From Deltaproteobacteria bacterium (GTDB taxonomy: Bacteria > UBA10199 > JACPAL01 > JAHFST01), in NCBI GenBank assembly GCA_023265625.1, contig JAHFST010000004.1:129709-193708 (forward strand): DNA of 64,000 bases, given 5' to 3'. Below are positions 4,512 to 64,000 of the stretch, piece after piece. Every line of letters starts with the position of its first letter. The stretch's first letter is position 1. Below the pieces are notes generated by a model. That model was not told the DNA's origin. It ran no database searches and saw only the letters and a program-made list of their open reading frames with translations. The position numbers and the translations under genes were made by a program.

Positions 4512-4513
4512 TT

Positions 4514-8143: not shown

Positions 8144-8152
8144 GGAGACATC

Positions 8153-50679: not shown

Positions 50680-50700
50680 ACGTGTTATACTCTAGACCCT

Positions 50701-51564
50701 ATGAAAATACGCTTCTGGGGGGTTCGCGGTTCTATCGCTTCGCCGGGTTCAGACACCGCCCACTTCGGTGGTAACACCTCCTGCGTTCAAGTCATTGACC
50801 AGGGAGCGATGCTGGTCCTGGATGCGGGCACTGGGGCTCGTGGTCTCGGGGATTATTTAATCACTTCCAAGGCTCATTCTCTCAAAGATGTCCATGTCCT
50901 CTTGTCTCATTTTCATACCGATCATATCTGCGGGCTGCCATTTTTTGCCCCGCTCTATCAGGCAAAGGTCAATCTTCATCTCTACGGCCCCAAAGGATTT
51001 CGACGGCAACCCAGTGCCATTTTGGCCTCATTTTTTGCCGAGGAATTTTTCCCGATCGCCGTCACAAAACTCCCGGCCCAACTGGATTTTCATCCCCTGG
51101 GAAACGAGACGTTTGAGATCAACCCGTTTCAAATCACTTCGTTTTATGTCAACCATCCCGGCAGTGCCCTAGGGTACGTCATCCAGAGCAAACAATGCCG
51201 CATCGCCTATCTCAGCGACCATGAACCGATGAAGCAATACCAACACATCAAACAATCAACTCTCTTACATTATGAAAAGCTCCTTTTGGAGCACCTGGGG
51301 GGCGTCGATCTGCTCATCCACGATGCCCATTTTACCGATGCGGAGTATCCCAACTATCGCGGTTGGGGGCACTCCCCCTGGAGCGAAGCCGTTGCCCTGG
51401 CCGTCTCCTGCCGTGTCAAACACCTCGTGCTGTTTCACCACGCCCCCACCCACAGTGATGCGATGCTCAAGAAAAACCTACGCCAACTTCAGGCCCAGTT
51501 AAAAAAGAAAAAATCCCCCCTCAAGGTCTCGCTGGCCCGTGAGGGGACAACCATCACCTTGTGA
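50701..51564 (+). CDS. MBL-fold metallo-hydrolase (candidate class II-like cyclic-nucleotide phosphodiesterase)
   Basis: 287 aa with an HFHTDH metal-binding motif. The N-terminus is IRFWGVRGS. Confidence 0.6.
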   Translation: MKIRFWGVRGSIASPGSDTAHFGGNTSCVQVIDQGAMLVLDAGTGARGLGDYLITSKAHSLKDVHVLLSHFHTDHICGLPFFAPLYQAKVNLHLYGPKGFRRQPSAILASFFAEEFFPIAVTKLPAQLDFHPLGNETFEINPFQITSFYVNHPGSALGYVIQSKQCRIAYLSDHEPMKQYQHIKQSTLLHYEKLLLEHLGGVDLLIHDAHFTDAEYPNYRGWGHSPWSEAVALAVSCRVKHLVLFHHAPTHSDAMLKKNLRQLQAQLKKKKSPLKVSLAREGTTITL

Positions 51565-53471
51565 AGAAATTCCTTCTCGCATTTATTCCCGCCTTCTTCT
51601 TCTGCCTGGTTTTGTTGTTGGATCTTCCCCTCACGCGTTGGTTGGAACTGCGTTCCATTGATTGGCGCTTTGCCTGGCGCGGATCCATCCCCGCCACGGG
51701 CGAGGTGGTCATCGTCGCGATTGATGAAAAAAGTTTAAATGCGGAGGGCCGTTGGCCTTGGCCCAGGAAAAAAATTGGGGAATTGATTGACCAGATCAAT
51801 AGTCACCAACCTAATCTGCTGGAAATGGACATTATCTTCGCGGAACCGGATCAGGACGATCCAAGCCTAGCCGCCGCCTTACACCGCAGTGCCAATACCA
51901 TTTTGGGTTATTTCTTCTTCCAAAGTGAAAAAGAAGTATCGGACGCCGCCATCTCGCCAGAGAAGGTCGAGAGAAGTTTTCAATCCGTCCTCCCCACGGC
52001 CTTCCCAGAAATTACCGGCTTACAAGAAACCCTCCCCAATATGGGGGGATTGATTGCCAATACACCTCAGATAGCCGCCGCCACTTCGTCACAGGGTTAC
52101 TTTAATGCCTTTCCAGATGCGGATGGAACCATCCGACGTTTCCCCGTGATGATCCAGTTTCGTCACAAGATCTTTCCCTCCATGGGATTAGAAACGATGG
52201 TCCATCGAGAGGGAGGATTTTCCCCCATCCCGGTCCAAGACGGCGATGGCATCCTGCAAGGCATGAGCCTGGGGAGTCGATTCATCCCTACGAGTTCACG
52301 CGGCGAGGTTTTGATCAATTACCGGGGCGGGGAAGATCGATTTAACATCTACTCGGCCACCGATATCTTGCATGGCCTGGTCCCCTCCGAAGCCCTGCGA
52401 GGCAAAACTATCCTCGTAGGGGCTACCGCCATCGGCATCTACGACCTCCGCGTCACGCCCATTTCTCCCAACCTGCCCGGGGTGTTGGCTCAAGGTAATT
52501 TGCTGGACAATCTTTATCGTGGTGATTTTTTAGTCCAGAATTTTTCCACCAAACTTATTTCGCTGGGGGCCTTGATCGTCATGTCCCTCGTCCTCTCTTG
52601 GTCACTCTACCGGCTCAGCCTCCTGCTGGGGTTACTCCTCACCGTTGTCATCATTGGGAGCTATGGCCTCATCGTGCAATGGTGCTTTCAACACGGCTGG
52701 GTATTGTTCCTAGTCACCCCGATCCTTGCCGCCGTCACGCTCTACATGATCATCACCATTTACCGGGGCCTGACCGAAGAACGACAAAAGCGCGAACTCC
52801 GCAAGGCGTTTCGTTCGTATTTGCACCCCGACATTGTGGAAGAAATTATCAAAGACCCGACGGCCTTGAAACTCGGGGGGCAGCGCGCCGAGTGCACCAT
52901 CCTCTTTTCGGACGTCCGCAATTTCACCACCATCTCTGAACAGATGGCGCCGGAGACGCTCGTGCAAATGATGAATGAATATTTTGATCCCATCTCGCGG
53001 GAGATCATTGCCGCCGGGGGCTACATCGATAAATTTATCGGGGATGCCGTCATGGCCATCTTTGGCGCCCCCAAGAGCACCCCGGACCACCCCTTCCAGG
53101 CCTGCCAAGCCGCCCTCGCCATGCAGCGCAAGGTGAATGAGCTGGCCCCTCACTTTCGGGAAAAATTCGGCATCCCGGAATTCAAGATCGGCATCGGCCT
53201 CCACACCGGCCCGGTCATCATCGGCAACATGGGCACCAGCGAACGCCTCAACTACACCGTCATGGGCGACTCGGTCAACCAAGCCGCCCGCCTGGAGTCC
53301 TCCACCAAAGGGCTCGGGGTCACGATCCTCATGAGTGAACAAACCCAATCCAAACTACCCCCGGCGATAAAAAGTCGATTCATCGAAGAAATTAGCGTGA
53401 AGGGGAAGGCGGATAAGATCCGGGTCTACGAACTACTCGCCACTAATTCTCTGGATTCCTCGGAAACTTAA
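51561..53471 (+). CDS. CHASE2-sensor class III adenylate/guanylate cyclase (second copy)
   Basis: 636 aa with CHASE2 region, TM helices and a cyclase domain (FSDVRNFTTISE, FIGDAVMAIFGAP). Confidence 0.8.
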   Translation: MKKFLLAFIPAFFFCLVLLLDLPLTRWLELRSIDWRFAWRGSIPATGEVVIVAIDEKSLNAEGRWPWPRKKIGELIDQINSHQPNLLEMDIIFAEPDQDDPSLAAALHRSANTILGYFFFQSEKEVSDAAISPEKVERSFQSVLPTAFPEITGLQETLPNMGGLIANTPQIAAATSSQGYFNAFPDADGTIRRFPVMIQFRHKIFPSMGLETMVHREGGFSPIPVQDGDGILQGMSLGSRFIPTSSRGEVLINYRGGEDRFNIYSATDILHGLVPSEALRGKTILVGATAIGIYDLRVTPISPNLPGVLAQGNLLDNLYRGDFLVQNFSTKLISLGALIVMSLVLSWSLYRLSLLLGLLLTVVIIGSYGLIVQWCFQHGWVLFLVTPILAAVTLYMIITIYRGLTEERQKRELRKAFRSYLHPDIVEEIIKDPTALKLGGQRAECTILFSDVRNFTTISEQMAPETLVQMMNEYFDPISREIIAAGGYIDKFIGDAVMAIFGAPKSTPDHPFQACQAALAMQRKVNELAPHFREKFGIPEFKIGIGLHTGPVIIGNMGTSERLNYTVMGDSVNQAARLESSTKGLGVTILMSEQTQSKLPPAIKSRFIEEISVKGKADKIRVYELLATNSLDSSET

Positions 53472-54936
53472 AGAACGGCAACCGAACATTGTTGATCAAC
53501 AACTGATCCGCCCGGATCGCTTCGGGGGGTTCGTAGCCGACGAGGCCGCCGGCGGTCACGTAGTCATCCTGTTCCACACCGTCACCGGAGACGCCCAGGC
53601 CGCCGACCAAGACCATCTGGCCAGCCACGTCGGGTTTGTAGAGAGGGGAACTGCCGGGGAAGAAGACGATGCCGTTTTGGTTGGCGTTGGCCGGCTGGCG
53701 ACCCTGGGTGCAGGGGTTGGCGTCGTCAAAATTAAAGATGTCGCGAAACGGGCCCGGGCTCGTGCCGTCAATCCCGGAAGGAAAAAAGGGTTGGGAACCG
53801 AACCCGATAGTGCGATTGGTGATCGCGGTTCCCAGCGGAATGCCGGGGATCTGGTCGGCGGCGGCTACCGAGGTGCCACTAAAATAGGTCACATTGCGCG
53901 CCTTGGCCACCGCCACATCGATACTGAAAACCGTGCTATCCACCATGCGGTTAAGCCCCAAGACATTCCCCGCCAAGTCCGTCACGGCGATCACCATCTT
54001 GGCGCGTTGGCTGAGCGGGAGACGAATGGCCGCTCGGGTGAGATTGGCACGGGCGATGGCCTGGTCAATGATGGTTCGCACATCGGTCGCCAATAACTTG
54101 GGGCTGTCCGCTGTCGGGCTGTCGATCGGTGTCACCAAATCCCCATCCGGGGCAATGCCACCCGCAATCGGGACGACATTATAAACGCCATTGTCACTCC
54201 CCGCATTCGAACCGTCGGGTCGTGTCATCTGCTCCACAAACGGCAGTGCCACTCCATCAATAAAAATAACCCCAGGATCTGCCGGAGTGGGTGGAAAGAG
54301 CGCAAGCCCCTGCACCGCCGCAAACTCGGCCCGATCCGTTGAGACACCGGCCACGCCTAAGCCTCCCACCAATCGCCCCCCTTGAAATAAAGGTACCCCA
54401 CCCGGTGTCACGGTAATTCCATTTCCGGGCGAAACCCCATCCAAGGCCGTCGCCGGAGCGATCACCTTCCCGGCCGCAAAAACGGTATTGAACGAACAAC
54501 CGCGATTGGTGTGTTCAATACCAAACAAGGCCCCGGAGGCCGTATTCATAATCCCCGGGGGGAAATGTTCGCGACTAATGGAGTTCACCGTCCGGCTGGA
54601 GAGCGGGGCCTGGTCATTGGAAAAAAAAGCCCCGGTACGTGCCAAAGAAAGGGCCACCTCTTGATCAGCGGCCACGGCCCCTGGTTTGCTATAAACCGCC
54701 AAGGGCGTCCCGGCCCGGTCCACCACCGCAATGGTCTGGGTCGCATCATCCAAGGCCAGAGCCGCGGCTTGCACCACCGACGTCACATCCACCGCCGTCA
54801 GCGGGATGGGCGGCACGGAGATGGTTAAATCAACCGGAATGGCCGCTTTTTCCTGACAGGAAATCCCCGTAAGAAAGATCGCTATTAAGGAGACTAAATG
54901 CTTTTTTTTCCTATGCATTCGTTGTATGCCCGTCAT
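53443..54936 (-). CDS. Lipoprotein with two GlcG/HbpS-like (DUF336) domains
   Basis: 497 aa with lipobox LTGISC. There are two copies of a ...PLFQGGRLVGGLGVAGVS... / ...MVLVGGLGVSGDGVEQDD... type motif. Confidence 0.45.
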   Translation of the reverse strand: MTGIQRMHRKKKHLVSLIAIFLTGISCQEKAAIPVDLTISVPPIPLTAVDVTSVVQAAALALDDATQTIAVVDRAGTPLAVYSKPGAVAADQEVALSLARTGAFFSNDQAPLSSRTVNSISREHFPPGIMNTASGALFGIEHTNRGCSFNTVFAAGKVIAPATALDGVSPGNGITVTPGGVPLFQGGRLVGGLGVAGVSTDRAEFAAVQGLALFPPTPADPGVIFIDGVALPFVEQMTRPDGSNAGSDNGVYNVVPIAGGIAPDGDLVTPIDSPTADSPKLLATDVRTIIDQAIARANLTRAAIRLPLSQRAKMVIAVTDLAGNVLGLNRMVDSTVFSIDVAVAKARNVTYFSGTSVAAADQIPGIPLGTAITNRTIGFGSQPFFPSGIDGTSPGPFRDIFNFDDANPCTQGRQPANANQNGIVFFPGSSPLYKPDVAGQMVLVGGLGVSGDGVEQDDYVTAGGLVGYEPPEAIRADQLLINNVRLPFFKFPRNPEN

Positions 54937-54973
54937 ACCTAAACTCGTTTATTTTCACAATGGATAAGGAAAC

Positions 54974-56674
54974 TTGAGGACAATTTCTTTCGTTCTGTTG
55001 ATACTCCTCCTGACCTGCCAGGTCTGGCCCCACCATGCCTCGGCCCAGGTACTGCATCGCCGTCCCGTCACAAAAATGGTGAAACATCCCGAGACGCTCC
55101 CAAGTGAATCCGGTGATTTTCACCTGGGCTCAGAACCTATCCCGGACCGGTGGCAAATCAAGCCCCCACCCTATTCGGTCAATCAACCGGGTCATCTCTA
55201 CGACCCTTATAATCAAAATATCCTCAAGGGCGATTACCCGATCCTGGGACAAAATACCTTCCTGATCCTGACAGGTACCAGCGAGACCGTCATCGAAGCA
55301 AAAAAACTCCCGATCCCCAGCGGGGCTAGCGCGGCGGGTGCGGGCCGATTTAATTTTTTCGGCAATGGCAACCTCCTCGAGGTCAATCAACGGTTCAAAC
55401 CCACATTCCAACTCTACCACGGCAACACGGCTTTTAAGCCGCGCGATTGGGAGCTCCGCATCACCCCAGTGTTCAATCTCAACGCCTTGAACTCCCGCCA
55501 GCGCGGCGTGGTCAACGTCAATGTGCAAAATGGCACGAGTCGATTCCAATTTGATATCGCCCTACAGGAGGCCTTTGCCGAGTACCATCTCGTCAATGTC
55601 TCTCCTTACTATGATTTCATCTCGATCCGCGGGGGGATCCAACCCTTCACGAGCGATTTTCGTGGGTTCATCTTCAGTGATACCAACCTCGGCGGAAGGA
55701 TCTTTGGCAATTTATCCAACAATCGCTACCAGTGGAATTTGGCCGCCTTTGACATGCTGGAAAAAAGCACCAACAGCGAACTCAACACCTTTGCCCGCCG
55801 CGACCAGGAAGTCTTGATTGCCAATCTATACGCCCAAGATTTTTTTGGGCTGCTCGGTTGGACCAATCAATTCAGCGTCCATTGGAATCATGACCAGGGC
55901 TCCACGCATTATGACATCAACGGTGTCTTGACGCGCCCCGCCCCCATTGGGGCCGCTGTCCCACACAGGATTGATGCGGTCTACTTAGGCTGGACCAGTG
56001 ATGGTAAGATTGGGCGCGTCAACATCAACCACGCCCTCTATTTTGCGTTGGGGGAAGACAACTTGAATCTGATCGCCCAGCGTCGCACCAAAATCAACGG
56101 AACCATGTTTGCGCTAGAACTCTCTTATGATCGTGATTGGTATCGGCTTAAGAGCTCCTTCCTGTATGCCTCCGGCGATTCTAAACCACAAAATGGCACC
56201 GCCACTGGTTTTGATTCCATCCTCGACCTGCAAAAATTTGCCGGGTCGGAAAACAGTTTCTTCAACCACCAAGCCATTCGTTTGCTCGGGGTCAACCTGG
56301 TCCAAAAAAATAGCCTCCTCCCCAGCCTGCGCAGCAGTAAGATCGAAGGACAGTCTAATTTCGTGAACCCGGGGCTTTGGCTCTACAGCGTCGGAAGCGA
56401 TCTGGAATTGCGACCGGATCTGCGGGCGTTTGTAAACGTCAACTATCTCCGGTTTGACAATACCGCCTCTCTGCAATTGCTGCTCAATCAGGGAAATATC
56501 CGAAAAGACATCGGGGTCGATTACAGCCTGGGCTTGCAATACCGTCCGTGGCTGAATAACAATGTGATCGTGAATCTCTCCCAGGCGGTGTTTCAACCAC
56601 TGGGCGGGTTTCGGGATATTTTGACGTCTAATGTTTTGTATTCAACGACGATGAATGTGGTGGTGACGTTTTGA
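54974..56674 (+). CDS. Outer-membrane beta-barrel protein (candidate porin partner of the downstream cytochrome)
   Basis: 566 aa. It has a signal peptide (ASAQ), alternating hydrophobic beta-strand pattern, and a C-terminal ..NVVVTF. Its stop overlaps the next ATG. Confidence 0.6.
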   Translation: MRTISFVLLILLLTCQVWPHHASAQVLHRRPVTKMVKHPETLPSESGDFHLGSEPIPDRWQIKPPPYSVNQPGHLYDPYNQNILKGDYPILGQNTFLILTGTSETVIEAKKLPIPSGASAAGAGRFNFFGNGNLLEVNQRFKPTFQLYHGNTAFKPRDWELRITPVFNLNALNSRQRGVVNVNVQNGTSRFQFDIALQEAFAEYHLVNVSPYYDFISIRGGIQPFTSDFRGFIFSDTNLGGRIFGNLSNNRYQWNLAAFDMLEKSTNSELNTFARRDQEVLIANLYAQDFFGLLGWTNQFSVHWNHDQGSTHYDINGVLTRPAPIGAAVPHRIDAVYLGWTSDGKIGRVNINHALYFALGEDNLNLIAQRRTKINGTMFALELSYDRDWYRLKSSFLYASGDSKPQNGTATGFDSILDLQKFAGSENSFFNHQAIRLLGVNLVQKNSLLPSLRSSKIEGQSNFVNPGLWLYSVGSDLELRPDLRAFVNVNYLRFDNTASLQLLLNQGNIRKDIGVDYSLGLQYRPWLNNNVIVNLSQAVFQPLGGFRDILTSNVLYSTTMNVVVTF

Positions 56675-59600
56675 TACCAATGGACAAGGACGGGCGCAAT
56701 AAATTGCGCCCCTACAGGAATCCTGTGCGACAAAAATTATTGCTGATTACTTCCCTCGTCATCATTGCGGCGCCCCTGTTTTCTCTCGACCGCCGAGACG
56801 ATCCCCTGCTCCGCCAAACCCCCGCGGAGGAAAAAGTTAAGAGCGCCGGTTGCCTCACCTGTCACACCGATATTGAACCCATGCACGCCTCGCCCAACGT
56901 GCGACTCGGCTGTACCGACTGCCATGGCGGCCATGAAAATATTGAGCTGCCCGCCGGGGCGCAAAAAGGCGGCCCGGAGTATGAGCGCGTCAAACAGCAG
57001 GCCCATCCTAAACCCACTTACCCAAAACGTTGGCCCAGTGCCGCCAATCCGGTACGTCCCTACAGCCTGACTTTGAAAGAAAACAAAGAATGGATTCGTT
57101 TTGTCAACCCGGGCGATTTCCGGGTCGTCGACCAAACCTGCGGCCGCTGTCATACCTCGGAGGCGTATCGATCCCCGCGCAGCGTCATGACTCATGTGGC
57201 CCCCTTCTGGGGGGCGGCCGCCTACAACAATGGGATCGTGGCCCCGAAACTGCCGTTCTTAGGAGAAAGCTATTCTCCCGAGGGCATTGCCCGCAAGCTT
57301 ACGACGGTGCCGCCACCTTCTGCGGCTGAGACGAAGCGAGGGATCATTCCCGTGACGGTTCCCCTGCCCCGCTGGAATATCACCCAACCGGGGGATATTG
57401 CCATTCGCTCTTTTGAGCGGGGTGGGCGTGTCAGCCGAATTGATCCCAGTGAGATCGGCAATCCAAACCTGTCTGAATTAGACGATCCGGGGCGCCCCGA
57501 TATGAAGCTCTCCGACCGAGGGCTCGGGACCCAATTGTTGATCAGTTCGCCGGTGTTGAATATTCACAAGACACGGCTCAACGACCCTCACCTGTCGCTC
57601 TTCGGCACCAATGACCATGCGGGTGATTACCGCTCGAGCGGGTGTACGGCCTGTCATGTGATTTACGGCAACGACCGCGATCCGGAACACTCCGGGCCCT
57701 ACGCCAAGTATGGCCATAACGGGACAAGTTCCAGTAAGGATCCAACGATCCCCAAAAACGAATCAGGGCATCCCATCCAGCACCGTCTCACCAACGCGAT
57801 CCCGACCAGTCAATGCATGGTCTGCCACATGCATCAGCCCAATGCCTTCGTGAATACCTACCTGGGCTATCAGATGTGGGATTATGAATCCGACGGGGAA
57901 TTTTTCTACCCGAAAAAACAACAACAACTCACCCCAAAGGAACGGACTGAAGCCTTGGAGTCAAACCCGGAAGGGGCCGTGATTCGTGGCCTCTGGAACG
58001 ATCCAAAATTTTTAAACCACGTCTCGGAACTCAATCCAAAATTAAAGACCACGCAATTTGCCGACTACCACGGCCATGGTTGGAATTTCCGCGCGGTCTT
58101 CAACAAGGATCGACGCGGTAACCTCTTGGATGCCAGCGGCCACAAGGTCTCCGACACCGATCCGGCCAAATTTAAAAAAGCGGTGCACCTCAAAGACATC
58201 CATCTCGAAAAGGGCATGCACTGCGTGGATTGCCACTTTAACCAAGACGCCCATGGGGACGGCAAGCTCTACGGGGCCTATGCCGATGCCGTGGCCATTT
58301 CCTGCGTGGATTGCCATGGCACCTTTCGGGAACGCGCCAAGATAGAGGCCACCGGCCCTGCCGGTCAGGGGTCCTTGGCCGACACCGTCACTACGTTTGG
58401 CAAGCGACGCTTTGTCTGGCGCGGCGGTGAACTCATCCAGCGTTCCTCGCTGTATGCGGACAAGGAATGGGCCGTGCCACAGGTGGTAGATTCCATCACG
58501 CCCGGTTCGACACACTTTAATCCCAAGGCGTACCGCGCCAAGACCATTGTGGCCTCAGACGGTCATCAGGTCGCACACGACTACGATAAGATGACTTGCT
58601 ATACCTGCCACACCAGCTTTGTGACCAACTGCTTTGGTTGCCACCTGCCGCAAAAGGCCAACGAGAAGCGCGAGATGAAACATTTTGAAGGAGAGACCTC
58701 GCGTAACTGGACCTCCTACAACCCTCAGGTCCTCCGTGATGAAGGCTATATGCTCGGGAAATGGGGACCCAGCAAGGGTGGGAAGATAGCCCCCGTGCGT
58801 TCCTCAAGCGCGCTGCTCATCAGCTCGATGAACGCCAATCGGGAACAGATCTATTTTGAACAGGCCCCAATCTCAACGCCTGGATATTCTTCCCAGGCCT
58901 TCAATCCGCATTATCCCCATGCCGTGCGCAAGACTGAGACGAAGACGTGCACCGATTGCCACATCTCGGATAAGAATGACAACAACGCCTGGATGTCCCA
59001 ACTCCTGCTATTCGGCACCAACATGGTCAATTTCATGGGACGCTACGCCTATGTTGGATTGGCGGGTGAAGGCTATGAAGCCGTCAAGGTCATCGAGACC
59101 GAGGAACCGCAGGCCGTCATCGGGAGTTATCTCCAGTCCCTGGCCTACCCGGCCGATTATCAAAAACATCTTGAGAAAAAATCCATCTTACAGACCGGTT
59201 ACCATCATCACGGCGACACCATTAACTGCCTACAACTCCGCGGGGAATACCTCTATGCGGCGAATGGCCAGGATGGTTTGCGGGTTTACGATGTGGCGAA
59301 TGTCGACAACAAAGGTTTTTCCGAACGTACCGTCACCTCCCCGGTTTCACCACTCGGCCAGCAAACCCATGTGGCAAGTAAAGAGGCCACCTGTGTCGCC
59401 CTGCCAACCAACATGCCGATCGATCCCACCCGCAAGGTCGCCGCGGAAAATCAGGAACAAGCCTGGCATCCCCTCTACCACTATGCCTACGTCTCCGATC
59501 GGGAAGAGGGTCTCATTGTGGTGAATGTGGATACCTTGGCCGATGGCAACCCACGAAACAATTTCCTCAAACGGGCCCTGACCTACAATCCCGATAACTT

Positions 59601-60330
59601 ATTCCATGGGGCGCGTTATCTCACCGTCGCCGGAGATTATCTCTATCTCATCGCTGATTCCGGCTTGAGCATCCTCAGTATCGATAATCCGTTGCAACCT
59701 AAGATCATCAAGACCTTTGGGGCCCCCTTTCTCAACGATCCGCGGGTAGTGGCCATTCAGTTCCGTTATGCCTTCGTGGGAGATGCCGATGGTCTCAAGG
59801 TGATCGACATCACGATGCCGGAAAAACCCACGCCCGTCACCGGCGTGGTGGTACCGGTCAAGGATCTCCACGATCTGTACCTGGCACGCACCGACGCCTA
59901 TGTGGCCGCCGGTCCGGAAGGGATCTTAATCATCGATATCACGCGACCGACCGCCCCCAAGTTGGCTCAAAAATTTTCCGCCGAAGGCCAAATCAACGAT
60001 GCCCGCTCGGTCCGGGTGGCCGCGACCAACGCCAGCTTCTTTGCTTATGTGGCCGATGGAAAAAATGGTCTGCGCGTCATCCAACTCACCTCCCCCAAGA
60101 CCCCCGGTTACTATGGTTTTGCGCCCATTCCACAACCCAAACTGATCGCCACCTACCCGACCAAGGGCCCGGCCATCGCCCTGTCCAAGGGGCTCGACCG
60201 TGATCGGGCGGTGGATGAGAGCGGTCACCAAGTAAGCATCTTTGGCCGCATGGGCTCTCGCCCGTTTACCTTGGAAGAGATGCGCCAACTCTTCATGAAA
60301 AATGGGCATATTTATACCGTGCATGATTGA
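56671..60330 (+). CDS. Decahaem c-type cytochrome fused to a C-terminal six-blade LVIVD-repeat beta-propeller
   Basis: 1219 aa with an N-terminal signal/anchor and ten CxxCH motifs. There are six repeats of about 40 aa of the form Y(L/A)Y(V/L)AxGxxGLx(V/I)(I/V)D(I/V)xxPxxPK. Confidence 0.85.
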   Translation: MIPMDKDGRNKLRPYRNPVRQKLLLITSLVIIAAPLFSLDRRDDPLLRQTPAEEKVKSAGCLTCHTDIEPMHASPNVRLGCTDCHGGHENIELPAGAQKGGPEYERVKQQAHPKPTYPKRWPSAANPVRPYSLTLKENKEWIRFVNPGDFRVVDQTCGRCHTSEAYRSPRSVMTHVAPFWGAAAYNNGIVAPKLPFLGESYSPEGIARKLTTVPPPSAAETKRGIIPVTVPLPRWNITQPGDIAIRSFERGGRVSRIDPSEIGNPNLSELDDPGRPDMKLSDRGLGTQLLISSPVLNIHKTRLNDPHLSLFGTNDHAGDYRSSGCTACHVIYGNDRDPEHSGPYAKYGHNGTSSSKDPTIPKNESGHPIQHRLTNAIPTSQCMVCHMHQPNAFVNTYLGYQMWDYESDGEFFYPKKQQQLTPKERTEALESNPEGAVIRGLWNDPKFLNHVSELNPKLKTTQFADYHGHGWNFRAVFNKDRRGNLLDASGHKVSDTDPAKFKKAVHLKDIHLEKGMHCVDCHFNQDAHGDGKLYGAYADAVAISCVDCHGTFRERAKIEATGPAGQGSLADTVTTFGKRRFVWRGGELIQRSSLYADKEWAVPQVVDSITPGSTHFNPKAYRAKTIVASDGHQVAHDYDKMTCYTCHTSFVTNCFGCHLPQKANEKREMKHFEGETSRNWTSYNPQVLRDEGYMLGKWGPSKGGKIAPVRSSSALLISSMNANREQIYFEQAPISTPGYSSQAFNPHYPHAVRKTETKTCTDCHISDKNDNNAWMSQLLLFGTNMVNFMGRYAYVGLAGEGYEAVKVIETEEPQAVIGSYLQSLAYPADYQKHLEKKSILQTGYHHHGDTINCLQLRGEYLYAANGQDGLRVYDVANVDNKGFSERTVTSPVSPLGQQTHVASKEATCVALPTNMPIDPTRKVAAENQEQAWHPLYHYAYVSDREEGLIVVNVDTLADGNPRNNFLKRALTYNPDNLFHGARYLTVAGDYLYLIADSGLSILSIDNPLQPKIIKTFGAPFLNDPRVVAIQFRYAFVGDADGLKVIDITMPEKPTPVTGVVVPVKDLHDLYLARTDAYVAAGPEGILIIDITRPTAPKLAQKFSAEGQINDARSVRVAATNASFFAYVADGKNGLRVIQLTSPKTPGYYGFAPIPQPKLIATYPTKGPAIALSKGLDRDRAVDESGHQVSIFGRMGSRPFTLEEMRQLFMKNGHIYTVHD

Positions 60331-60365: not shown

Positions 60366-61214
60366 ATGTCGGCTGATGAAAGCTTTTTAGCAGAGGTGCC
60401 GTTTTTTAAGCTCCTCGATTTGGACGAGACCAGGGCCCTGGCCGCTGTCATGCATGAGGTTCATTTCAGCCCTGAGCAGATGTTGTTTCATTTTGGGGAT
60501 CGAGGGGATTGCCTTTACATTGTCAAGCGCGGCAAGGTTGAACTGTTCGTCAAGGATCATTCGGGTGAAAAGATCGTGTTACGGGTGGCCAACCCGGGGG
60601 ACTTGTTTGGCGAACTCGCCATGTTGGATAACGGCCCGCGGACCGCGTCGGCCGTTGCGGTGGAAGACACCGACCTGCTTATCTTGCACCAACAAGACCT
60701 CCTAAAATTCCTCCACAAAAAACCCGATGCCGCCCTGGACCTCTTGGCGGTGTTGGGAGGCAGGCTGCGAAAAACCAACGACCTCCTCAGGGGACGCGTG
60801 ACCCGGAATGCCAATGAGGAGATCAAGCAAGATTTAAGCTGGGGTCAAAGACTGGCCAACTTCATTGCCGAGTTCAGCGGCAGTATGCCTTTTCTGTTTA
60901 TCAACGCCGCCATGTTTGCCGTCTGGATCTTGCTCAACGTCAACATCATCCCCGGCTTTGTCCCCTTCGACCCCTACCCCTTCGGCTTCCTGACCATGGC
61001 CGTCTCCCTGGAGGCCATCTTCCTCAGCATCTTCGTCCTGCTGGCCCAAAACCTGATCGCCGCCAAAGACCGCATCCGCGCCGACATCGAATACGAAATC
61101 AACCTCAAGGCCGAACTAGAAATCGCCTACCTCCACGAAAAATTCGATCACATGAATGCGGAGATGCTGGGGCAATTGGAGCAGATTAAGAAGTTAGTAA
61201 AAGATAAATCGTAA
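60366..61214 (+). CDS. Cyclic-nucleotide-binding domain protein fused to a DUF1003-like two-TM membrane domain
   Basis: 282 aa. The cNMP-binding (CAP effector) signature is FGELAMLDNGPRTASAVAVEDTDLL. The C-terminus has 2 TM helices with a DPYPFGFLT motif. Confidence 0.65.
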   Translation: MSADESFLAEVPFFKLLDLDETRALAAVMHEVHFSPEQMLFHFGDRGDCLYIVKRGKVELFVKDHSGEKIVLRVANPGDLFGELAMLDNGPRTASAVAVEDTDLLILHQQDLLKFLHKKPDAALDLLAVLGGRLRKTNDLLRGRVTRNANEEIKQDLSWGQRLANFIAEFSGSMPFLFINAAMFAVWILLNVNIIPGFVPFDPYPFGFLTMAVSLEAIFLSIFVLLAQNLIAAKDRIRADIEYEINLKAELEIAYLHEKFDHMNAEMLGQLEQIKKLVKDKS

Positions 61215-61224
61215 AGCGGCACCG

Positions 61225-61968
61225 CTAATCAAACTTCTCCTGATCCTCACTCTTCCCCGTCCCCTCTTTGGTGTATCCCTCAATCGTCAACCGATCCGAA
61301 TAAAACCAATCATACATATCCCGCCTCAGCTTGGCCATCCAGCTCTGCCCTTGTTCCTTGCGCTTGAGGTTGTAAAAAACCACCCCCTCCGCCATGACCT
61401 TCGTATCAAGGCCCAGCTTGGAGGCCCGCTTGGTGAAGAATCGTGAGAACAGGCCGGTCTGGAACCAGCTGCTCCAATTGTCAAAGGTGCGGTCATGCTC
61501 GTGGAAGGAGCGGTATTGGAGATCTTTGATGGCTTTTTCAAAGGGATACCATTCATGAAAATCCAACTGGTAGGGATTCCCCTGGACCTTGGGCCCGATC
61601 AGCTCGCCGACCTGCTCCCCATTCTCCTTCACATAGCCCTTGTCCAACGAGCGGAAAATCCCCTCCATGATGAAGGTCTTACCGTGCATGATCTGCAACG
61701 GGTCGATGATGTTTTTCCTATTTTGCACCTCCAACAGGCGACCTTTTTCCAGCAAAATTTTGATGTTGGTCCCGTCCAATTTCTCAACCGCGATGGTCTC
61801 GGGATCCTCAAAGACCCACTCATAGCCGGGATTGACCTGGTCAATCACCAGATAGACCTCCGGCACCCGCAACTTGAGGCTGGAACCGTGCTGCTTAAAC
61901 TGTTCCCGATTGACCGGGAAGGTCTGGCGCAACAGAGGACATTGGATCTTTGGAAAATCGGTCATCAT
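61225..61968 (-). CDS. ATP-dependent RNA/DNA-ligase-like nucleotidyltransferase (KxDGxN motif I)
   Basis: 247 aa. The motif VEKLDGTNIKI matches covalent nucleotidyltransferase motif I (Rnl2/DNA-ligase superfamily). It is small, so only the adenylyltransferase domain is present. Confidence 0.5.
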   Translation of the reverse strand: MMTDFPKIQCPLLRQTFPVNREQFKQHGSSLKLRVPEVYLVIDQVNPGYEWVFEDPETIAVEKLDGTNIKILLEKGRLLEVQNRKNIIDPLQIMHGKTFIMEGIFRSLDKGYVKENGEQVGELIGPKVQGNPYQLDFHEWYPFEKAIKDLQYRSFHEHDRTFDNWSSWFQTGLFSRFFTKRASKLGLDTKVMAEGVVFYNLKRKEQGQSWMAKLRRDMYDWFYSDRLTIEGYTKEGTGKSEDQEKFD

Positions 61969-61971
61969 AAA

Positions 61972-62274
61972 TTAAGCCGCCTTCTTTTTGTCAATAAACG
62001 TAATTCTCAATTCGACGCCTAGGGCGTCACATGCCCTCTGGATCCACTCCATGGAGGTATTTTTTCCCGTAAACTTCTCATACACAGCCTGACGGGAAAT
62101 ATTCATGCGACGGGCCAGTTCATTTTTGTTAATCTTCTTTTCCGTCATAACGCGAAATAATCCACCAAGCAAGTCTTGGAATTTTAAGAAATTTCTATCT
62201 TCTGGATCATTGGGATCCAAACCCAAAAGTTCGGTAACTGTTATTTTTCTTTTCCCTTTAAAAATCTTTTCCAT
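61972..62274 (-). CDS. HTH XRE-family antitoxin
   Basis: 100 aa with the HTH segment INKNELARRMNISRQAVYEKF. It overlaps the toxin gene. Confidence 0.65.
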   Translation of the reverse strand: MEKIFKGKRKITVTELLGLDPNDPEDRNFLKFQDLLGGLFRVMTEKKINKNELARRMNISRQAVYEKFTGKNTSMEWIQRACDALGVELRITFIDKKKAA

Positions 62275-62642
62275 CGCTTCACCCCTCGATTGACCGCTTG
62301 GCTCATGCCCCCTTTACTCTTGTGAACAGCGGCCACAATGATTAAATTCGGCTCCCTCATCGCAAAAATGATTCGTTCTCCCCTTCCTTCCGCTCTAACC
62401 TCCCAGAGATTCAGTTCCAGCGCTTCCTTTTGACGCTGTAACTTCTTCAACAAGCATTGCTCGATTAACGGAGCGTAAGATCTTCCCTCTTGGAGGGCTT
62501 TTGCCAAAAACTCCAAACTCTGAAATAGAGTTTTTCTCTCCTGTTTGCCAATTTCGAATTGTTGACAATCCTTGAGTAGGACATTTTGCCCATCCTCTTC
62601 TAAAACCCAAATACCGGGCTTCACTTCTATGATATCGATCAT
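62241..62642 (-). CDS. HigB/RelE (Gp49-like) type II toxin
   Basis: 133 aa. The C-terminus (LWEVRAEGRGERIIFAMREPNLIIVAAVHKSK...A..R...F) parallels the toxin at 726..1043. Confidence 0.6.
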   Translation of the reverse strand: MIDIIEVKPGIWVLEEDGQNVLLKDCQQFEIGKQERKTLFQSLEFLAKALQEGRSYAPLIEQCLLKKLQRQKEALELNLWEVRAEGRGERIIFAMREPNLIIVAAVHKSKGGMSQAVNRGVKRWKRFLKGKEK

Positions 62643-62826: not shown

Positions 62827-63996
62827 TTACGGTTGTGCAACCATTTTATGCAATTGCTCCATCCCCGCCGCGAAGACTTTGGGATTGTAACGCGCTGGAT
62901 CTTTGACATCGAGCAGGTCGTAGAGTTTTCTGACTTGCTGGAGTACCGCCGGACGGCCCACTTTTTGGCCGGCGGCCGACAAGGTCAGGGCGTCGACGGC
63001 CATGAGCCCCTGCTCGGCAACGCGGAAGCCGCCCTTTTGATAGGCCTCCTGATCGCCGCTGATCTGCTGGACCAGGGCCTCAACCAAGGCGGGCTGAAAA
63101 CCAAAAGAATCGATCTTGGCTACCAAATCCTTCATCTGGCCCGCCACCTGATTCGCCGCCTGGGTGACCCCTGGGAGATCGGGCTGATCGCTCCGAAAGG
63201 CGGCATCGATCGTCTCGATCGACCCGGCCAATTCCTTGTCTTGCTCCGGAAAGGCCTGTTGGAGGAAGTGACGGAAGATGGCGTAGTGTGAGGCATTCCA
63301 GAGCGCCTTGCCGGGGACTTGCGGGTTCAGCGGCCAATTCACATCGTAGATATTGTGATGACACGAAAAACAGTTGCGATCCGCTTCATCAAGGCGCTTG
63401 CGCTCGCCAGTTCGTTTCGCCAAAACCTCCATGGAACGTTGCAAGGCCAGCGCCTGCCCCACCGCCCAAGACTTGGCCCCGGCCCAAGGTTGTTTTTCCT
63501 TCCAGTGTTTGGGCATCACGGCGCTGAAGGTGTCCAATTCAAACACGAGATCAGGATGTCCCGCGGACAAGAGACCATGATCGATCCCCGAGTGGCAACG
63601 CAGGCAACCATCCGCACGCTTCGCCAAATCACGATTGTCATACATCCCTAGCTTCAGAGACTCGGCGTAGGTCCACCCCTTACGGGTATGGGGTTCGAGC
63701 CAGGCCCCGGCCCGACCGTGGCAGCCCTCGCAACTTACCCCATCATCGCGATCATACTTAGGCCCACGCTGCCCGGCTTCAGCGGTCACCCCATGACACG
63801 TCAAACAGGTCTCCGACTCATGGGCCGGGGTTTTTAAACCGAGCACCCGCGCCATCGTTTGAGATCGTGGATTAAACAAGACGCCATAAGCCTTGGCATG
63901 CTTGTCCTCCGTGGCCCAGGTGGTGAATTGATCCTTCCCGGTCTGTGTCCCGCCATGGCAATTACTGGAACTACAACTCGTGGCACCCATCATCAA
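62827..63996 (-). CDS. Multihaem c-type cytochrome, 5' end probably beyond the window
   Basis: At least 389 aa. It has four CxxCH motifs (CLTCH, CEGCH, CLRCH, CFSCH) plus a CSSSNCH (CX4CH) motif. The reading frame stays open to the window edge and no signal peptide is seen. Confidence 0.7.
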   Translation of the reverse strand: MMMGATSCSSSNCHGGTQTGKDQFTTWATEDKHAKAYGVLFNPRSQTMARVLGLKTPAHESETCLTCHGVTAEAGQRGPKYDRDDGVSCEGCHGRAGAWLEPHTRKGWTYAESLKLGMYDNRDLAKRADGCLRCHSGIDHGLLSAGHPDLVFELDTFSAVMPKHWKEKQPWAGAKSWAVGQALALQRSMEVLAKRTGERKRLDEADRNCFSCHHNIYDVNWPLNPQVPGKALWNASHYAIFRHFLQQAFPEQDKELAGSIETIDAAFRSDQPDLPGVTQAANQVAGQMKDLVAKIDSFGFQPALVEALVQQISGDQEAYQKGGFRVAEQGLMAVDALTLSAAGQKVGRPAVLQQVRKLYDLLDVKDPARYNPKVFAAGMEQLHKMVAQP

Positions 63997-64000
63997 CGGA

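What the first reader, a model, noticed from the sequence alone, without database searches (positions are those of the whole stretch)
54974..60330. Translationally coupled outer-membrane beta-barrel plus decahaem cytochrome with an LVIVD beta-propeller: candidate new porin-cytochrome electron conduit
A 566-aa signal-peptide protein has outer-membrane beta-barrel character and a C-terminal ..VVTF. Its stop overlaps the ATG of a 1219-aa protein carrying ten CxxCH haem motifs. That protein ends in six LVIVD-type repeats of consensus YxY(V/L)AxGxxGLx(V/I)(I/V)D(I/V)xxPxxPK, which should form a beta-propeller. Paired genes for a porin and a decahaem cytochrome are the logic of the MtrAB/PioAB/Pcc extracellular electron transfer modules. 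No described conduit, to my knowledge, fuses a decahaem unit to an LVIVD propeller. A divergently transcribed tandem haem-binding-like (GlcG/HbpS) lipoprotein and a second multihaem cytochrome nearby add to the redox theme.
Basis: partly seen in the sequence, partly recalled or inferred. Interest (0 to 1): 0.8.

Follow-up and report, generated by a model that had tools for sequence, protein, structure and literature searches.

The report
Conserved outer-membrane barrel plus decahaem-propeller cytochrome
The barrel gene and the ten-haem, propeller-tailed cytochrome gene are real and sit next to each other in hundreds of bacterial species, inside an unnamed gene cluster that looks like an electron path from the cytoplasm to the outer membrane, but the barrel is a small substrate channel, not the wide sheath of known mineral-respiring conduits.

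Summary
A 566-aa signal-peptide outer-membrane barrel is followed at once by a 1216/1219-aa exported protein with ten CxxCH motifs and six LVIVD repeats.

The pair is not a chance neighbourhood:
- Each family has thousands of members, all called 'hypothetical', at 50-60% identity across more than 10 phyla.
- The barrel lies directly upstream of the cytochrome in 76 of 76 informative genome loci.
- The cytochrome lies directly downstream of the barrel in 72 of 80 metagenome loci. All but one of the other eight are cut contigs or insertions.

The pair sits in a larger conserved cluster:
- a tandem HbpS/GlcG-like (lipo)protein;
- a c554-like cytochrome;
- an inner-membrane module, made of a FAD/NAD(P)H plus cNMP plus 4Fe-4S protein, a membrane protein with four conserved His that looks like a dihaem b cytochrome, and a membrane-anchored decahaem.

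Best reading: a periplasmic terminal decahaem oxidoreductase docked to a substrate channel, at the end of an NAD(P)H-fed electron-export chain.

The closest described system is the uncharacterised ptd operon. I rate it a new variant of a known kind; its function is unknown.

The parts
54974..56674 (+). Outer-membrane beta-barrel, 566 aa. It has a signal peptide (res 1-25) and a conserved periplasmic N-terminal motif, DRW..PPY..DPYNQN.LKGDYP (res 55-94, nt 55136-55255). About 18 strands span res 95-565. A long, highly conserved loop L7 covers res 400-467 (nt 56171-56374). The protein ends in the OMP-type C-terminus VVTF.
56671..60330 (+). Exported decahaem c-type cytochrome fused to an LVIVD beta-propeller (1219 aa from TTG 56671; 1216 aa from ATG 56680). 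Signal peptide res ~1-39. Haem domain from C61 to H764 (nt 56851-58962). Propeller res ~792-1173 (nt 59044-60189), with six LVIVD repeats at res 868-1160.
   Evidence: Ten CxxCH motifs. Pfam LVIVD 59 bits. Six repeats. AF2 propeller confident, haem domain poorly modelled. Generic propeller matches only. NCBIfam ExtM 94 bits against a cut-off of 800. Weak TvNiR/NrfA hits. Family of >7900 clusters.
53443..54936 (-). Tandem HbpS/GlcG-like (DUF336) exported protein, 497 aa, divergently transcribed from the barrel. It is a conserved member of the cluster and is a lipoprotein in most other lineages.
   Evidence: Pfam PF03928, two stretches. Found next to the barrel in 61 of 80 genome loci, upstream of the cytochrome in 60 of them, and in 58 of 80 metagenome loci. 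No conserved His and two conserved Cys. Lipoboxes in homologues.
62827..64000 (-). Cytochrome c554-like multihaem cytochrome with 4 CxxCH plus a conserved N-terminal CX4CH. The signal-peptide N-terminus lies beyond the window end. In most other genomes this gene sits directly downstream of the decahaem-propeller gene.
   Evidence: Pfam Cytochrome_C554. Full gene seen in L001. Directly downstream of cytB in 36 of 80 loci and present in 55 of 80. CX4CH conserved in 36 of 37. Family profile hits Nitrosomonas c554 at E 3e-9.
51561..53471 (+). CHASE2-domain adenylate/guanylate cyclase, a possible regulator. It could supply the cyclic nucleotide sensed by the cNMP-binding Fe-S protein of the cluster. 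Association is tentative.
   Evidence: Pfam CHASE2 + Guanylate_cyc. Homologues lie within 10 kb of the pair in 6 of the 80 genome loci (family c12, sequence).
60366..61214 (+). cNMP-binding + DUF1003 membrane protein directly downstream of the cytochrome. It is a lineage-specific neighbour and a possible regulator. Association is tentative.
   Evidence: Pfam annotation. In other loci only its cNMP-binding domain finds matches, in the cluster's Fe-S proteins.

Best explanation
The barrel and the decahaem-propeller protein are the outer-membrane end of a conserved, unnamed trans-envelope electron-transfer system.

Electron path. Electrons enter in the cytoplasm at a FAD/NAD(P)H plus cNMP-binding plus 4Fe-4S protein. 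In this genome the version is cNMP/PilZ/4Fe-4S. They cross the inner membrane through a 5-helix protein with four invariant His, which looks like a dihaem b cytochrome of the ferric-reductase/b561 kind. They then pass to a membrane-anchored periplasmic decahaem, which in many lineages carries a cytoplasmic FHA domain. A c554-like cytochrome probably carries them on to the ~1200-aa decahaem-propeller protein.

Location and role. The decahaem-propeller protein sits in the periplasm and docks onto the periplasmic face of the 18-strand AlgE/OprD-class barrel. The barrel does not sheath a haem wire. It lets a soluble substrate or product cross the outer membrane to or from the cytochrome, which acts as the terminal oxidoreductase. 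This is Cyc2-like or 'enzyme plus dedicated porin' logic, not MtrAB logic.

Shown: gene anatomy, conservation, synteny, barrel class, and the domain make-up of all parts.
Inferred: physical docking, direction of electron flow (outward, non-energy-conserving), periplasmic location, and catalytic rather than wire function.
Unknown: the substrate.
For: - Obligate pairing in both directions: 76/76 genome loci and 72/80 metagenome loci.
- Extended synteny of FAD/cNMP/Fe-S, 5-TM protein, decahaem, HbpS-like, barrel, cytB and c554-like cytochrome.
- The 5-TM protein has invariant H81/H95 and H272/H286 on two helices. Some members carry PF01292, and one has the UniRef name 'ferric reductase like transmembrane component'.
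- NAD(P)H-type flavoproteins recur, either fused or adjacent: Pyr_redox_2, and sequences I read as NuoEF-like and SthA-like.
- The cytochrome has a type-I signal peptide in 113 of 120 homologues.
- One homologue has an in-frame C-terminal AMIN + STN/N0 extension. Six of 136 have a C-terminal hydrophobic helix plus an Arg-rich tail. One barrel has an N-terminal AMIN domain. All of these are periplasm-side features.
- About 70 aa per haem, and uniformly high conservation of the haem domain and the propeller. At 50% identity clustering, few full-length representatives appear among the best 150 hits. This is typical of an enzyme rather than a surface wire.
- Weak colinear similarity to octahaem nitrite reductase/NrfA haem motifs and to Geobacter ExtM.
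- In the sister ptd operon, the terminal cytochrome PtdA is NrfA-COG, is predicted periplasmic, and is paired with a porin.
Against: - No catalytic signature was found. All ten motifs are CxxCH, there is no hit to NrfA/HAO/OTR Pfam families, and the PDB similarity is marginal (E 0.002).
- The haem domain could not be modelled (pLDDT <50 over 505 residues). Open haem coordination and docking are therefore untested.
- No substrate is indicated by the gene context.
- The AMIN/STN fusion is seen in a single MAG and could be an assembly artefact. The C-terminal helix plus basic tail could be a sorting signal rather than an inner-membrane anchor.
- 7 of 120 homologues have a lipobox and could be surface lipoproteins like MtrC.
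- The nominally extracellular loops of the barrel are as conserved as the rest. This is unusual for a simple porin and could mean a partner binds on the outside.
- The inner-membrane module is in the same locus in only 36-41 of 80 loci, and it also occurs without this pair.
Confidence: 0.45

Rival explanations
1. True porin-cytochrome conduit. Part of the decahaem protein, for example its N-terminal haems, inserts into the barrel. It carries electrons across the outer membrane to or from insoluble or extracellular partners such as Fe(III)/Mn(IV) minerals, humics or other cells. The propeller would serve as the docking or binding module.
For: - Strict barrel-cytochrome adjacency, as in mtrAB/pioAB.
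- A complete upstream chain that could deliver electrons from the cytoplasm.
- A weak MtrC/MtrF domain II/IV Pfam match at residues 56-170 (29 bits against a cut-off of 30).
- Beta-propeller proteins are co-encoded with multihaem cytochromes and barrels in other extracellular electron transfer clusters (Uet in Tenderiales; OmcE nanowire clusters).
- 7 of 120 homologues are lipoproteins.
- Both faces of the barrel are conserved.
- The authors of the sister ptd operon also propose a porin-cytochrome complex.
Against: - The barrel is an 18-strand AlgE/OprD-class barrel with a long conserved loop, not a 26-strand MtrB-type.
- The haem domain is bulky, about 70 aa per haem.
- C-terminal AMIN/STN and membrane-anchor variants put the propeller end in the periplasm.
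- There is no lipoprotein multihaem partner for the outer face. The HbpS-like lipoprotein has no CxxCH and no conserved His.
- Carriers are mostly aerobes: nitrite oxidisers, methanotrophs, Halieaceae and soil Acidobacteriota.
- The very high sequence conservation is unlike surface cytochromes.
Confidence: 0.25
2. The barrel is an export or mounting device rather than a substrate channel. It secretes or anchors the cytochrome, or some other product. This would resemble AlgE-type exporters, or the 'porin-mounted' model proposed for OmcS/OmcE nanowires.
For: - The closest fold is the alginate exporter AlgE.
- OmcE/OmcS clusters pair a large barrel with propeller lipoproteins, and a porin-mounting model has been proposed for them.
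- The barrel has a conserved periplasmic N-terminal motif that could receive a partner.
Against: - An 18-strand lumen cannot pass a folded ~130-kDa haem protein.
- No polysaccharide synthesis genes or secretion ATPase genes are in the conserved cluster.
- The cytochrome shows no polymerising-subunit features.
- C-terminal periplasmic anchors occur in variants.
Confidence: 0.08
3. The assembly is mainly a redox sensor or signalling device. The multihaem proteins would sense periplasmic or extracellular redox state and report it inward through the FHA, PP2C, Ser/Thr-kinase and cNMP/PilZ components, rather than carrying a metabolic electron flux.
For: - The signalling content is unusually dense. 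It includes cNMP-binding and PilZ domains on the Fe-S protein and FHA on the membrane decahaem. PP2C phosphatase, FHA proteins and a Ser/Thr kinase lie in many loci. CHASE2 cyclases lie nearby.
- HbpS is a redox-stress sensor accessory in Streptomyces (family name; role from my own knowledge).
Against: - About 25 haems, Fe-S clusters and a flavoprotein are a heavy investment for a sensor.
- NAD(P)H-type flavoprotein domains point to flux.
- A dedicated outer-membrane channel is not needed for sensing.
- The regulatory parts are less conserved in position than the redox parts.
Confidence: 0.07

Closest known systems
ptdABCDEFG operon (putative porin-cytochrome complex of marine Alphaproteobacteria UBA11136 and others; bioRxiv 10.1101/2023.11.21.568154; function unknown)
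   Same: The inner part shares the same logic and apparently the same families:
- a FAD/NAD(P) oxidoreductase (PtdC) and a cNMP-binding 2x4Fe-4S protein (PtdE), which are fused in most loci here;
- a ferric-reductase-like membrane protein (PtdF, the 5-TM four-His protein here);
- a decahaem (PtdG, the membrane-anchored decahaem here);
- a tetrahaem (PtdD, likely the c554-like cytochrome here).
Both systems end in a multihaem cytochrome paired with a porin gene. Both are reported in Alpha- and Gammaproteobacteria, Nitrospirales and Planctomycetes.
   Different: - The terminal module differs. [quoted passage not shown] Here it is a ~1200-aa decahaem with an LVIVD propeller, an AlgE-like barrel and a tandem HbpS-like protein.
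- No Ptd-type pentahaem was found in any of the 80 genome loci.
- The mapping of the shared parts rests on the paper's domain descriptions, not on alignments.
MtrCAB / PioAB / MtoAB porin-cytochrome conduits
   Same: Adjacent, co-oriented genes for an outer-membrane barrel and a ten-haem c-type cytochrome with a type-I signal peptide.
   Different: - There is no MtrB_PioB Pfam hit.
- The cytochrome is 1216 aa with ~70 aa per haem and a propeller, where MtrA is a compact wire of ~330 aa (my own knowledge).
- The cytochrome does not match the DmsE/MtrA NCBIfam family at all at E <= 0.1.
- There is no MtrC-type lipoprotein cytochrome.
Cyc2 fused cytochrome-porin of iron oxidisers
   Same: A small barrel (16 strands there, 18 here) with a haem protein at its periplasmic side. 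The substrate would come to the haem through the pore, rather than a wire crossing the membrane. This is the working logic I favour.
   Different: - Cyc2 is a single polypeptide with one haem. Here there are two genes and ten haems.
- The barrel here has no CxxCH.
- No sequence relationship was detected.
AlgE / OprD(Occ)-class 18-strand outer-membrane channels (Pfam Alginate_exp PF13372)
   Different: - There is no alginate or other exopolysaccharide gene context.
- The window protein itself has no Pfam hit at E 0.01.
- It has a conserved ~40-residue periplasmic N-terminal motif and an obligate cytochrome partner.
Octahaem nitrite reductase (TvNiR) / NrfA superfamily, and Geobacter ExtM
   Same: - Colinear weak matches of haem 1-2 and haem 6-7 motifs to TvNiR/NrfA (E 0.002-0.04).
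- Residues 508-765 match NCBIfam ExtM (E 5e-27).
   Different: - There is no CxxCK catalytic motif and no Pfam NrfA/HAO hit.
- The ExtM score is 94 bits against a cut-off of 800.
- The middle third (res 300-520), with the invariant DYHGHGW motif, matches nothing.
- The LVIVD propeller is absent from those families.
FHA-nonahaem / transmembrane protein / 4Fe-4S trio of Ferrigenium straubiae (bioRxiv 10.64898/2026.01.22.701106)
   Same: By description, it is the same inner-membrane sub-module. It was reported as novel and of unknown function.
   Different: There the trio is described next to nirK and an SHP-like gene, and no barrel or decahaem-propeller pair is mentioned. This shows that the inner module can serve other periplasmic partners.

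Membership tests
MtrAB/PioAB-type porin-cytochrome conduit | MtrB/PioB-family barrel of ~26 strands, wide enough to sheath a decahaem | tested here: not met
   [not shown]
MtrAB/PioAB-type porin-cytochrome conduit | Compact MtrA/DmsE-family periplasmic decahaem (~300-350 aa) | tested here: not met
   1216 aa with ~70 aa per haem. The NCBIfam decahem_SO family does not match this protein at E <= 0.1.
MtrAB/PioAB-type porin-cytochrome conduit | Barrel and cytochrome genes adjacent and co-inherited | tested here: met
   76/76 genome loci and 72/80 metagenome loci. There is one genome where the pair is split ~110 kb apart.
MtrAB/PioAB-type porin-cytochrome conduit | Haem chain physically spans the outer membrane; surface exposure | not testable with these tools
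   No complex prediction with haems was available. Indirect clues (AMIN/STN fusion, C-terminal anchors) point to a periplasmic C-terminus.
AlgE/Alginate_exp-class outer-membrane channel | 18-strand barrel with the AlgE fold | tested here: met
   [not shown]
AlgE/Alginate_exp-class outer-membrane channel | Sequence match to Pfam PF13372 | tested here: inconclusive
   The window protein has no hit at E 0.01. One homologue, P0195 (52% identical), carries PF13372.
AlgE/Alginate_exp-class outer-membrane channel | Exopolysaccharide synthesis/export gene context | tested here: not met
   The conserved neighbours are redox and signalling proteins only.
LVIVD-repeat beta-propeller (PF08309) | Repeated LVIVD motif matching the Pfam model and folding as a propeller | tested here: met
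   59.4 bits against a cut-off of 20.2. Six repeats. Confident AF2 propeller with generic propeller matches.
NrfA / octahaem nitrite reductase superfamily | Catalytic CxxCK haem (or the equivalent Lys/Tyr active site) and a family-level sequence match | tested here: not met
   No CxxCK. No Pfam family hit. Only E 0.002 motif-level matches in the PDB. Active-site geometry is not testable because the haem domain is unmodelled.
Geobacter ExtM (NF040943) | Score above the NCBIfam equivalog cut-off | tested here: not met
   94.5 bits against 800, covering residues 508-765 only.
ptd operon (penta/tetra/deca-haem cluster) | PtdC/E/F/G/D-type inner module (FAD/NAD(P), cNMP + 4Fe-4S, ferric-reductase-like TM protein, decahaem, tetrahaem) | tested here: met
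   By domain content, not by alignment. See against the paper's description. In this genome the module lies just past the window end (L001 17447-21448).
ptd operon (penta/tetra/deca-haem cluster) | PtdA pentahaem with a beta-sandwich, plus the PtdB porin, as the terminal module | tested here: not met
   No such pentahaem in the 80 genome loci. The terminal protein here is a decahaem with an LVIVD propeller. PtdB-barrel homology was not tested.

The most novel reading that the evidence does not exclude
The pair would be the terminal module of a previously unrecognised, very widespread, two-membrane-spanning electron-export machine of mostly aerobic bacteria. Carriers include soil Acidobacteriota, Nitrospira/Nitrospina, methanotrophs, marine Halieaceae and Rhodospirillaceae, Bacteroidota and KSB1. 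The machine would take electrons from cytoplasmic NAD(P)H through Fe-S clusters and a dihaem b membrane protein to about 25 c-type haems. It would deliver them at the outer membrane to a new kind of decahaem-propeller oxidoreductase served by its own AlgE-like channel. The whole would be gated by cyclic nucleotides and Ser/Thr phosphorylation: a bacterial, envelope-spanning counterpart of NOX/ferric-reductase systems acting on an unknown extracellular or periplasmic substrate.
Probability: 0.4. Interest if true: 0.85.

Novelty: new variant of a known kind. Interest (0 to 1): 0.7.

Why it matters
Porin-cytochrome modules are the textbook way for bacteria to move electrons across the outer membrane. 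So far they are tied to a few metal-respiring or iron-oxidising groups.

This pair is different in three ways:
- It is extremely conserved.
- It is present in at least ~590 species-level genomes and thousands of metagenomic clusters.
- Its carriers include abundant soil and ocean aerobes, nitrite oxidisers and methanotrophs.

Yet every member is annotated 'hypothetical'. No Pfam or NCBIfam family, structure or paper describes it.

Together with the sister ptd operon, which is highly transcribed in an ocean oxygen-deficient zone, it points to a large, unexplored class of NAD(P)H-fed periplasmic or extracellular redox systems.

Cultured carriers exist (Parahaliea maris, Spectribacter spp., Fontimonas sp.), so the question is directly testable.

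Tried and rejected
1. Structure-based classification of the haem domain. The AlphaFold2 model was poor there (pLDDT <50 for 505 residues), so Foldseek returned only generic propellers. No conclusion can be drawn about the haem fold.

2. Pfam on three sub-segments at E <= 5. It gave only generic c3/c7/MtrC-domain motif hits and nothing for residues 300-520.

3. Methylococcus capsulatus surface cytochromes (MCA0338 and others) as possible homologues. They belong to the c553o/PKD family and are unrelated.

4. Apparent HbpS-barrel and barrel-cytochrome 'fusions' in high-GC loci (L040, L052, L053, L066). These are artefacts of my crude ORF caller reading through stop-poor frames. Only the L030 C-terminal AMIN/STN extension and the L055 N-terminal AMIN/SH3 extension have real domain hits.

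5. HbpS-like protein as a haem-carrying outer partner. It has no conserved His and no CxxCH, so this is unsupported.

6. cyt389 as the PtdA homologue. The family profile matches Nitrosomonas c554 (E 3e-9) much better than the T. tepidum pentahaem c552 (E 5e-5, motif level). I therefore map it to the tetrahaem PtdD instead.

7. A profile search of the 1.84-billion representative library with alignment A2 failed because the profile exceeded 1200 positions. The single-sequence search was used instead.

8. Literature searches on LVIVD + cytochrome, decahaem + propeller + porin, alginate export + multihaem, and FHA + multihaem found no description of this protein pair.

Full report
WHAT IS IN THE WINDOW

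ORF 54974-56674 (+) encodes a 566-aa protein. It has a cleavable signal peptide, a single Cys, no CxxCH, and the outer-membrane-protein ending ...VVTF.

ORF 56671-60330 (+) starts at a TTG that overlaps the barrel's TGA. An ATG follows 5 nt after the stop, and the public gene call uses it (1216 aa). The protein has a signal peptide and exactly ten CxxCH motifs between residues 61 and 764.

The divergent gene 53443-54936 (-) has two HbpS/GlcG-like halves. The gene at 62827-64000 (-) is a c554-like cytochrome whose N-terminus lies beyond the window end.

FAMILY SIZE AND CONSERVATION

- The cytochrome finds at least 7988 clusters (90% identity) in the 5.8-billion-protein collection. The listed hits (best 120) are 1095-1340 aa, carry LVIVD, are 55-77% identical over nearly the full length, and are named 'hypothetical protein' or unnamed.
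They span Nitrospirota, Nitrospinota, Acidobacteriota, Bacteroidota/Ignavibacteria, Planctomycetota, Bdellovibrionota, Myxococcota, Binatia and Alpha-, Beta- and Gammaproteobacteria. The list includes the isolates Parahaliea maris, Fontimonas sp. and two Spectribacter species, and Methylobacter, Methylococcus, Nitrospira and Nitrospina MAGs.
- KSB1, Calditrichota and NC10 appear in source names.
- The barrel family is of similar size (at least 6639 clusters) and is 50-72% identical.
- At 50% clustering, few full-length representatives appear among the best 150 hits. This is a very tight family.
- Neither protein reaches the threshold of any Pfam or NCBIfam family other than LVIVD and the generic Cytochrom_c3_2 motif family. 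Neither has a solved relative.

SYNTENY

In the 80 genome loci, a barrel homologue lies directly upstream on the same strand in all 76 that contain upstream DNA. The nominal intergenic distance has a median of 13 nt.

The reciprocal test used 80 metagenome loci retrieved with the barrel:
- 72 have the cytochrome directly downstream.
- 4 are cut by the contig end.
- 3 have the cytochrome about 0.9-1.1 kb further downstream. In L147 the inserted gene looks like an IS200/RAYT-type transposase by eye.
- 1 is a broken locus with a truncated barrel.

The only intact exception seen is the closest complete genome, CP064976.1. There the HbpS-like gene and the barrel lie ~110 kb from the cytochrome, with toxin-antitoxin and AbiE genes at the break points.

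Clustering all ORFs of the loci shows a larger conserved order:
1. a FAD/NAD(P) Pyr_redox_2 + 2 cNMP-binding + 4Fe-4S protein, ~800 aa;
2. a 5-TM protein, ~280 aa;
3. an FHA-TM-decahaem protein;
4. the HbpS-like (lipo)protein;
5. the barrel;
6. the decahaem-LVIVD protein;
7. the c554-like cytochrome.

A PP2C phosphatase, an FHA protein and a Ser/Thr kinase often follow. In this window's genome the inner module lies just beyond the window end (L001 17447-21448). It comprises a cNMP/PilZ/4Fe-4S protein, a 293-aa TM protein and a TM-anchored decahaem.

THE BARREL

AlphaFold2 (pLDDT 82) gives 18 long strands, a disordered N-terminal region (low model confidence over residues 17-52 and 80-86), and a 68-residue loop between strands 13 and 14.

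- Foldseek ranks AlgE first (E 1.4e-17), followed by MOMP, OprD/Occ channels and chitoporins.
- One homologue carries Pfam Alginate_exp.
- Conservation is high everywhere. This includes the N-terminal motif DRW..PPY..DPYNQN.LKGDYP and loop L7.

This is a substrate-channel class of barrel. It is not the 26-strand sheath of MtrB.

THE CYTOCHROME

- The haem domain is large, about 70 residues per haem, and strongly conserved. It contains haem-free invariant motifs such as DYHGHGW.
- It could not be modelled. The propeller was modelled confidently but resembles only generic propellers.
- Sequence links to known proteins are weak:
  - NCBIfam ExtM of the Geobacter selenite/tellurite operon over residues 508-765 (94 bits against 800).
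  - A sub-threshold MtrC/MtrF domain hit.
  - Colinear motif-level matches to octahaem nitrite reductase and NrfA (E 0.002-0.04).
- There is no CxxCK, and no NrfA/HAO family match.

WHERE THE CYTOCHROME SITS

- 113 of 120 homologues have a plain signal peptide, and 7 have a lipobox.
- One Vicinamibacteria homologue continues in frame into an AMIN domain and a secretin-type STN/N0 domain. Both are periplasmic modules.
- 6 of 136 end in a Pro/Thr-rich linker, a hydrophobic helix and an Arg-rich tail. This is the form of an inner-membrane anchor.
- One barrel has an N-terminal AMIN + SH3 extension.

These rare variants are consistent with the C-terminal, propeller end being periplasmic. They argue against a surface-exposed propeller. 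They are few, and one may be an assembly artefact, so this is a lead rather than proof.

THE ELECTRON SOURCE

The 5-TM protein has four invariant His, paired 14 residues apart on two helices (H81/H95 and H272/H286). Some members carry the cytochrome b561/Ni_hydr_CYTB Pfam family, and one has the UniRef name 'ferric reductase like transmembrane component'. From this I infer two b haems that carry electrons across the inner membrane.

- On the cytoplasmic side sits a 4Fe-4S protein with cNMP-binding domains, usually fused to a NAD(P)H-type flavoprotein domain. In Acidobacteriota it is accompanied by flavoproteins that I read as NuoEF-like and SthA-like.
- On the periplasmic side sits a TM-anchored decahaem.

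Outward flow from NAD(P)H would dissipate rather than build membrane potential. I therefore infer a reductive, non-respiratory role, analogous to NOX/ferric reductases. The reverse direction is thermodynamically unattractive but is not excluded.

LITERATURE

No paper in the searchable library links LVIVD to multihaem cytochromes in this sense, and other keyword combinations found nothing. Three papers bear on the finding:

- A 2023/24 preprint names a sister operon, ptdABCDEFG. It consists of a pentahaem (NrfA COG), a porin, a FAD/NAD(P) oxidoreductase, a tetrahaem, a cNMP/2x4Fe-4S protein, a ferric-reductase-like TM protein and a decahaem. The operon is transcribed in an ocean oxygen-deficient zone. 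The authors call it a putative porin-cytochrome complex of completely unknown function.
- A 2026 preprint on Ferrigenium describes the FHA-multihaem/TM/4Fe-4S trio as novel.
- Beta-propeller proteins are co-encoded with cytochromes and barrels, as separate genes, in the Uet and OmcE clusters.

The cluster here shares the inner module with ptd but has a different terminal module. No Ptd-type pentahaem occurs in the 80 genome loci. Whether PtdB is homologous to this barrel could not be tested.

HOW IT MOST LIKELY WORKS

I favour (0.45) a periplasmic terminal decahaem-propeller oxidoreductase docked under an AlgE-class channel that admits or releases a soluble substrate. It would be fed by the NAD(P)H -> Fe-S -> haem b -> decahaem -> c554-like chain.

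The rivals are:
Strict pairing and the existence of the chain favour it. The barrel class, the haem-domain bulk and the C-terminal variants count against it.
- An export or mounting role for the barrel (0.08).
- A mainly sensory role (0.07).
- The remainder is unassigned.

The substrate is unknown. The weak NrfA/ONR and ExtM links, and the presence in nitrite oxidisers, make N-oxides and chalcogen oxyanions reasonable first candidates. This is speculation.

NOVELTY AND VERDICT

The pair is a real, very widespread and wholly unannotated module. It is a new variant within the broad kind 'porin plus multihaem cytochrome'. It is a sister to the recently noticed, uncharacterised ptd system, and it is not a member of the Mtr/Pio/Pcc or Cyc2 families.

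The claim of an Mtr-like threaded conduit does not.

Interest is 0.7. A specialist would be surprised by the breadth and conservation of an unnamed trans-envelope redox system in aerobes, and cultured carriers make it testable. However, the function is unknown, and part of the system has already been noted in two preprints.

Noticed in passing
L001 17447-21448 (same contig as the window; window position = L001 position + 46679, i.e. just past window base 64000): The inner-membrane electron-transfer module of this genome lies here. It has a cNMP-binding/PilZ/4Fe-4S protein (636 aa), a 293-aa 5-TM protein with four invariant His, and a TM-anchored decahaem (403 aa, no FHA domain). It is divergently transcribed from the c554-like cytochrome. 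One public gene call reads this stretch on the wrong strand.
   Followed up: yes
window 62827-64000 (-) and homologues in L007-L081: The c554-like cytochrome family has a conserved N-terminal CX4CH motif besides four CxxCH (36 of 37 members), so it is probably a pentahaem. Its C-terminal ~250 residues are helical and match no family.
   Followed up: partly
window 61225-62642 (-): An RNA-ligase-like gene, an HTH gene and a 133-aa gene (which may form a toxin-antitoxin-like pair) lie between the decahaem-propeller gene and the c554-like cytochrome. In most other genomes those two cytochrome genes are adjacent, so this looks like a lineage-specific insertion.
   Followed up: partly
window 4496-9643 (+), 10460-12436 (+), 14334-18550 (+): There is a NarG/NarH-like molybdopterin oxidoreductase pair (nitrate reductase or nitrite oxidoreductase type) and an MFS transporter. 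There is also a 952-aa protein with molybdopterin-oxidoreductase Fe4S4, Molydop_binding and 4Fe-4S domains, which I read as ActB-like (alternative complex III type), followed by a 453-aa ORF. These hint at nitrogen-oxide respiration in this organism.
   Followed up: no
window 42150-44372 (+) and 47206-53471 (+): Two CHASE2-domain nucleotide cyclases are present. They are accompanied by a TPR + barrel-like protein, a FecR-domain protein with a Pro-rich tail, a 336-aa exported protein and a metallo-beta-lactamase-fold protein. CHASE2 cyclases recur near the cytochrome cluster in a few other genomes, which fits the cNMP-binding Fe-S protein.
   Followed up: partly
L030 13600-14581; L134, L154, L148, L080, L147, L122 (3' ends of the cytochrome genes): Rare C-terminal variants of the decahaem-propeller protein. 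One has an in-frame AMIN + STN/N0 extension. Six have a linker, a hydrophobic helix and an Arg-rich tail. The L055 barrel has an N-terminal AMIN + SH3 extension.
   Followed up: yes
L162 and L163 (CP064976.1, 1.19 Mb and 1.30 Mb): In the closest complete genome, the HbpS-like/barrel pair and the cytochrome are ~110 kb apart. ParE/antitoxin and AbiEii genes lie at the break points. The cytochrome there looks N-terminally truncated or frameshifted: a 72-aa ORF overlaps its start.
   Followed up: partly
L147 7790-8431: A 213-aa gene that looks like an IS200/RAYT-type transposase (judged by eye; no family search was run) is inserted between the barrel and the cytochrome. L154 has a gap of similar size that I did not inspect.
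   Followed up: partly
L026, L032, L043, L049, L051, L054, L057, L070 (Acidobacteriota loci): Flavoproteins that look NuoE/NuoF-like (~557 aa) and SthA/dihydrolipoamide-dehydrogenase-like (~472 aa) lie next to the inner module. This was read from the sequences; no family search was run. It reinforces a pyridine-nucleotide link. A protein that looks like a GH63-type glycosidase also recurs there, unexplained.
   Followed up: no
window 54937-54973: Only 37 nt separate the divergent start codons of the HbpS-like gene and the barrel gene. That is too short for two ordinary promoters, so one start may be mis-assigned or the transcripts may overlap.
   Followed up: no
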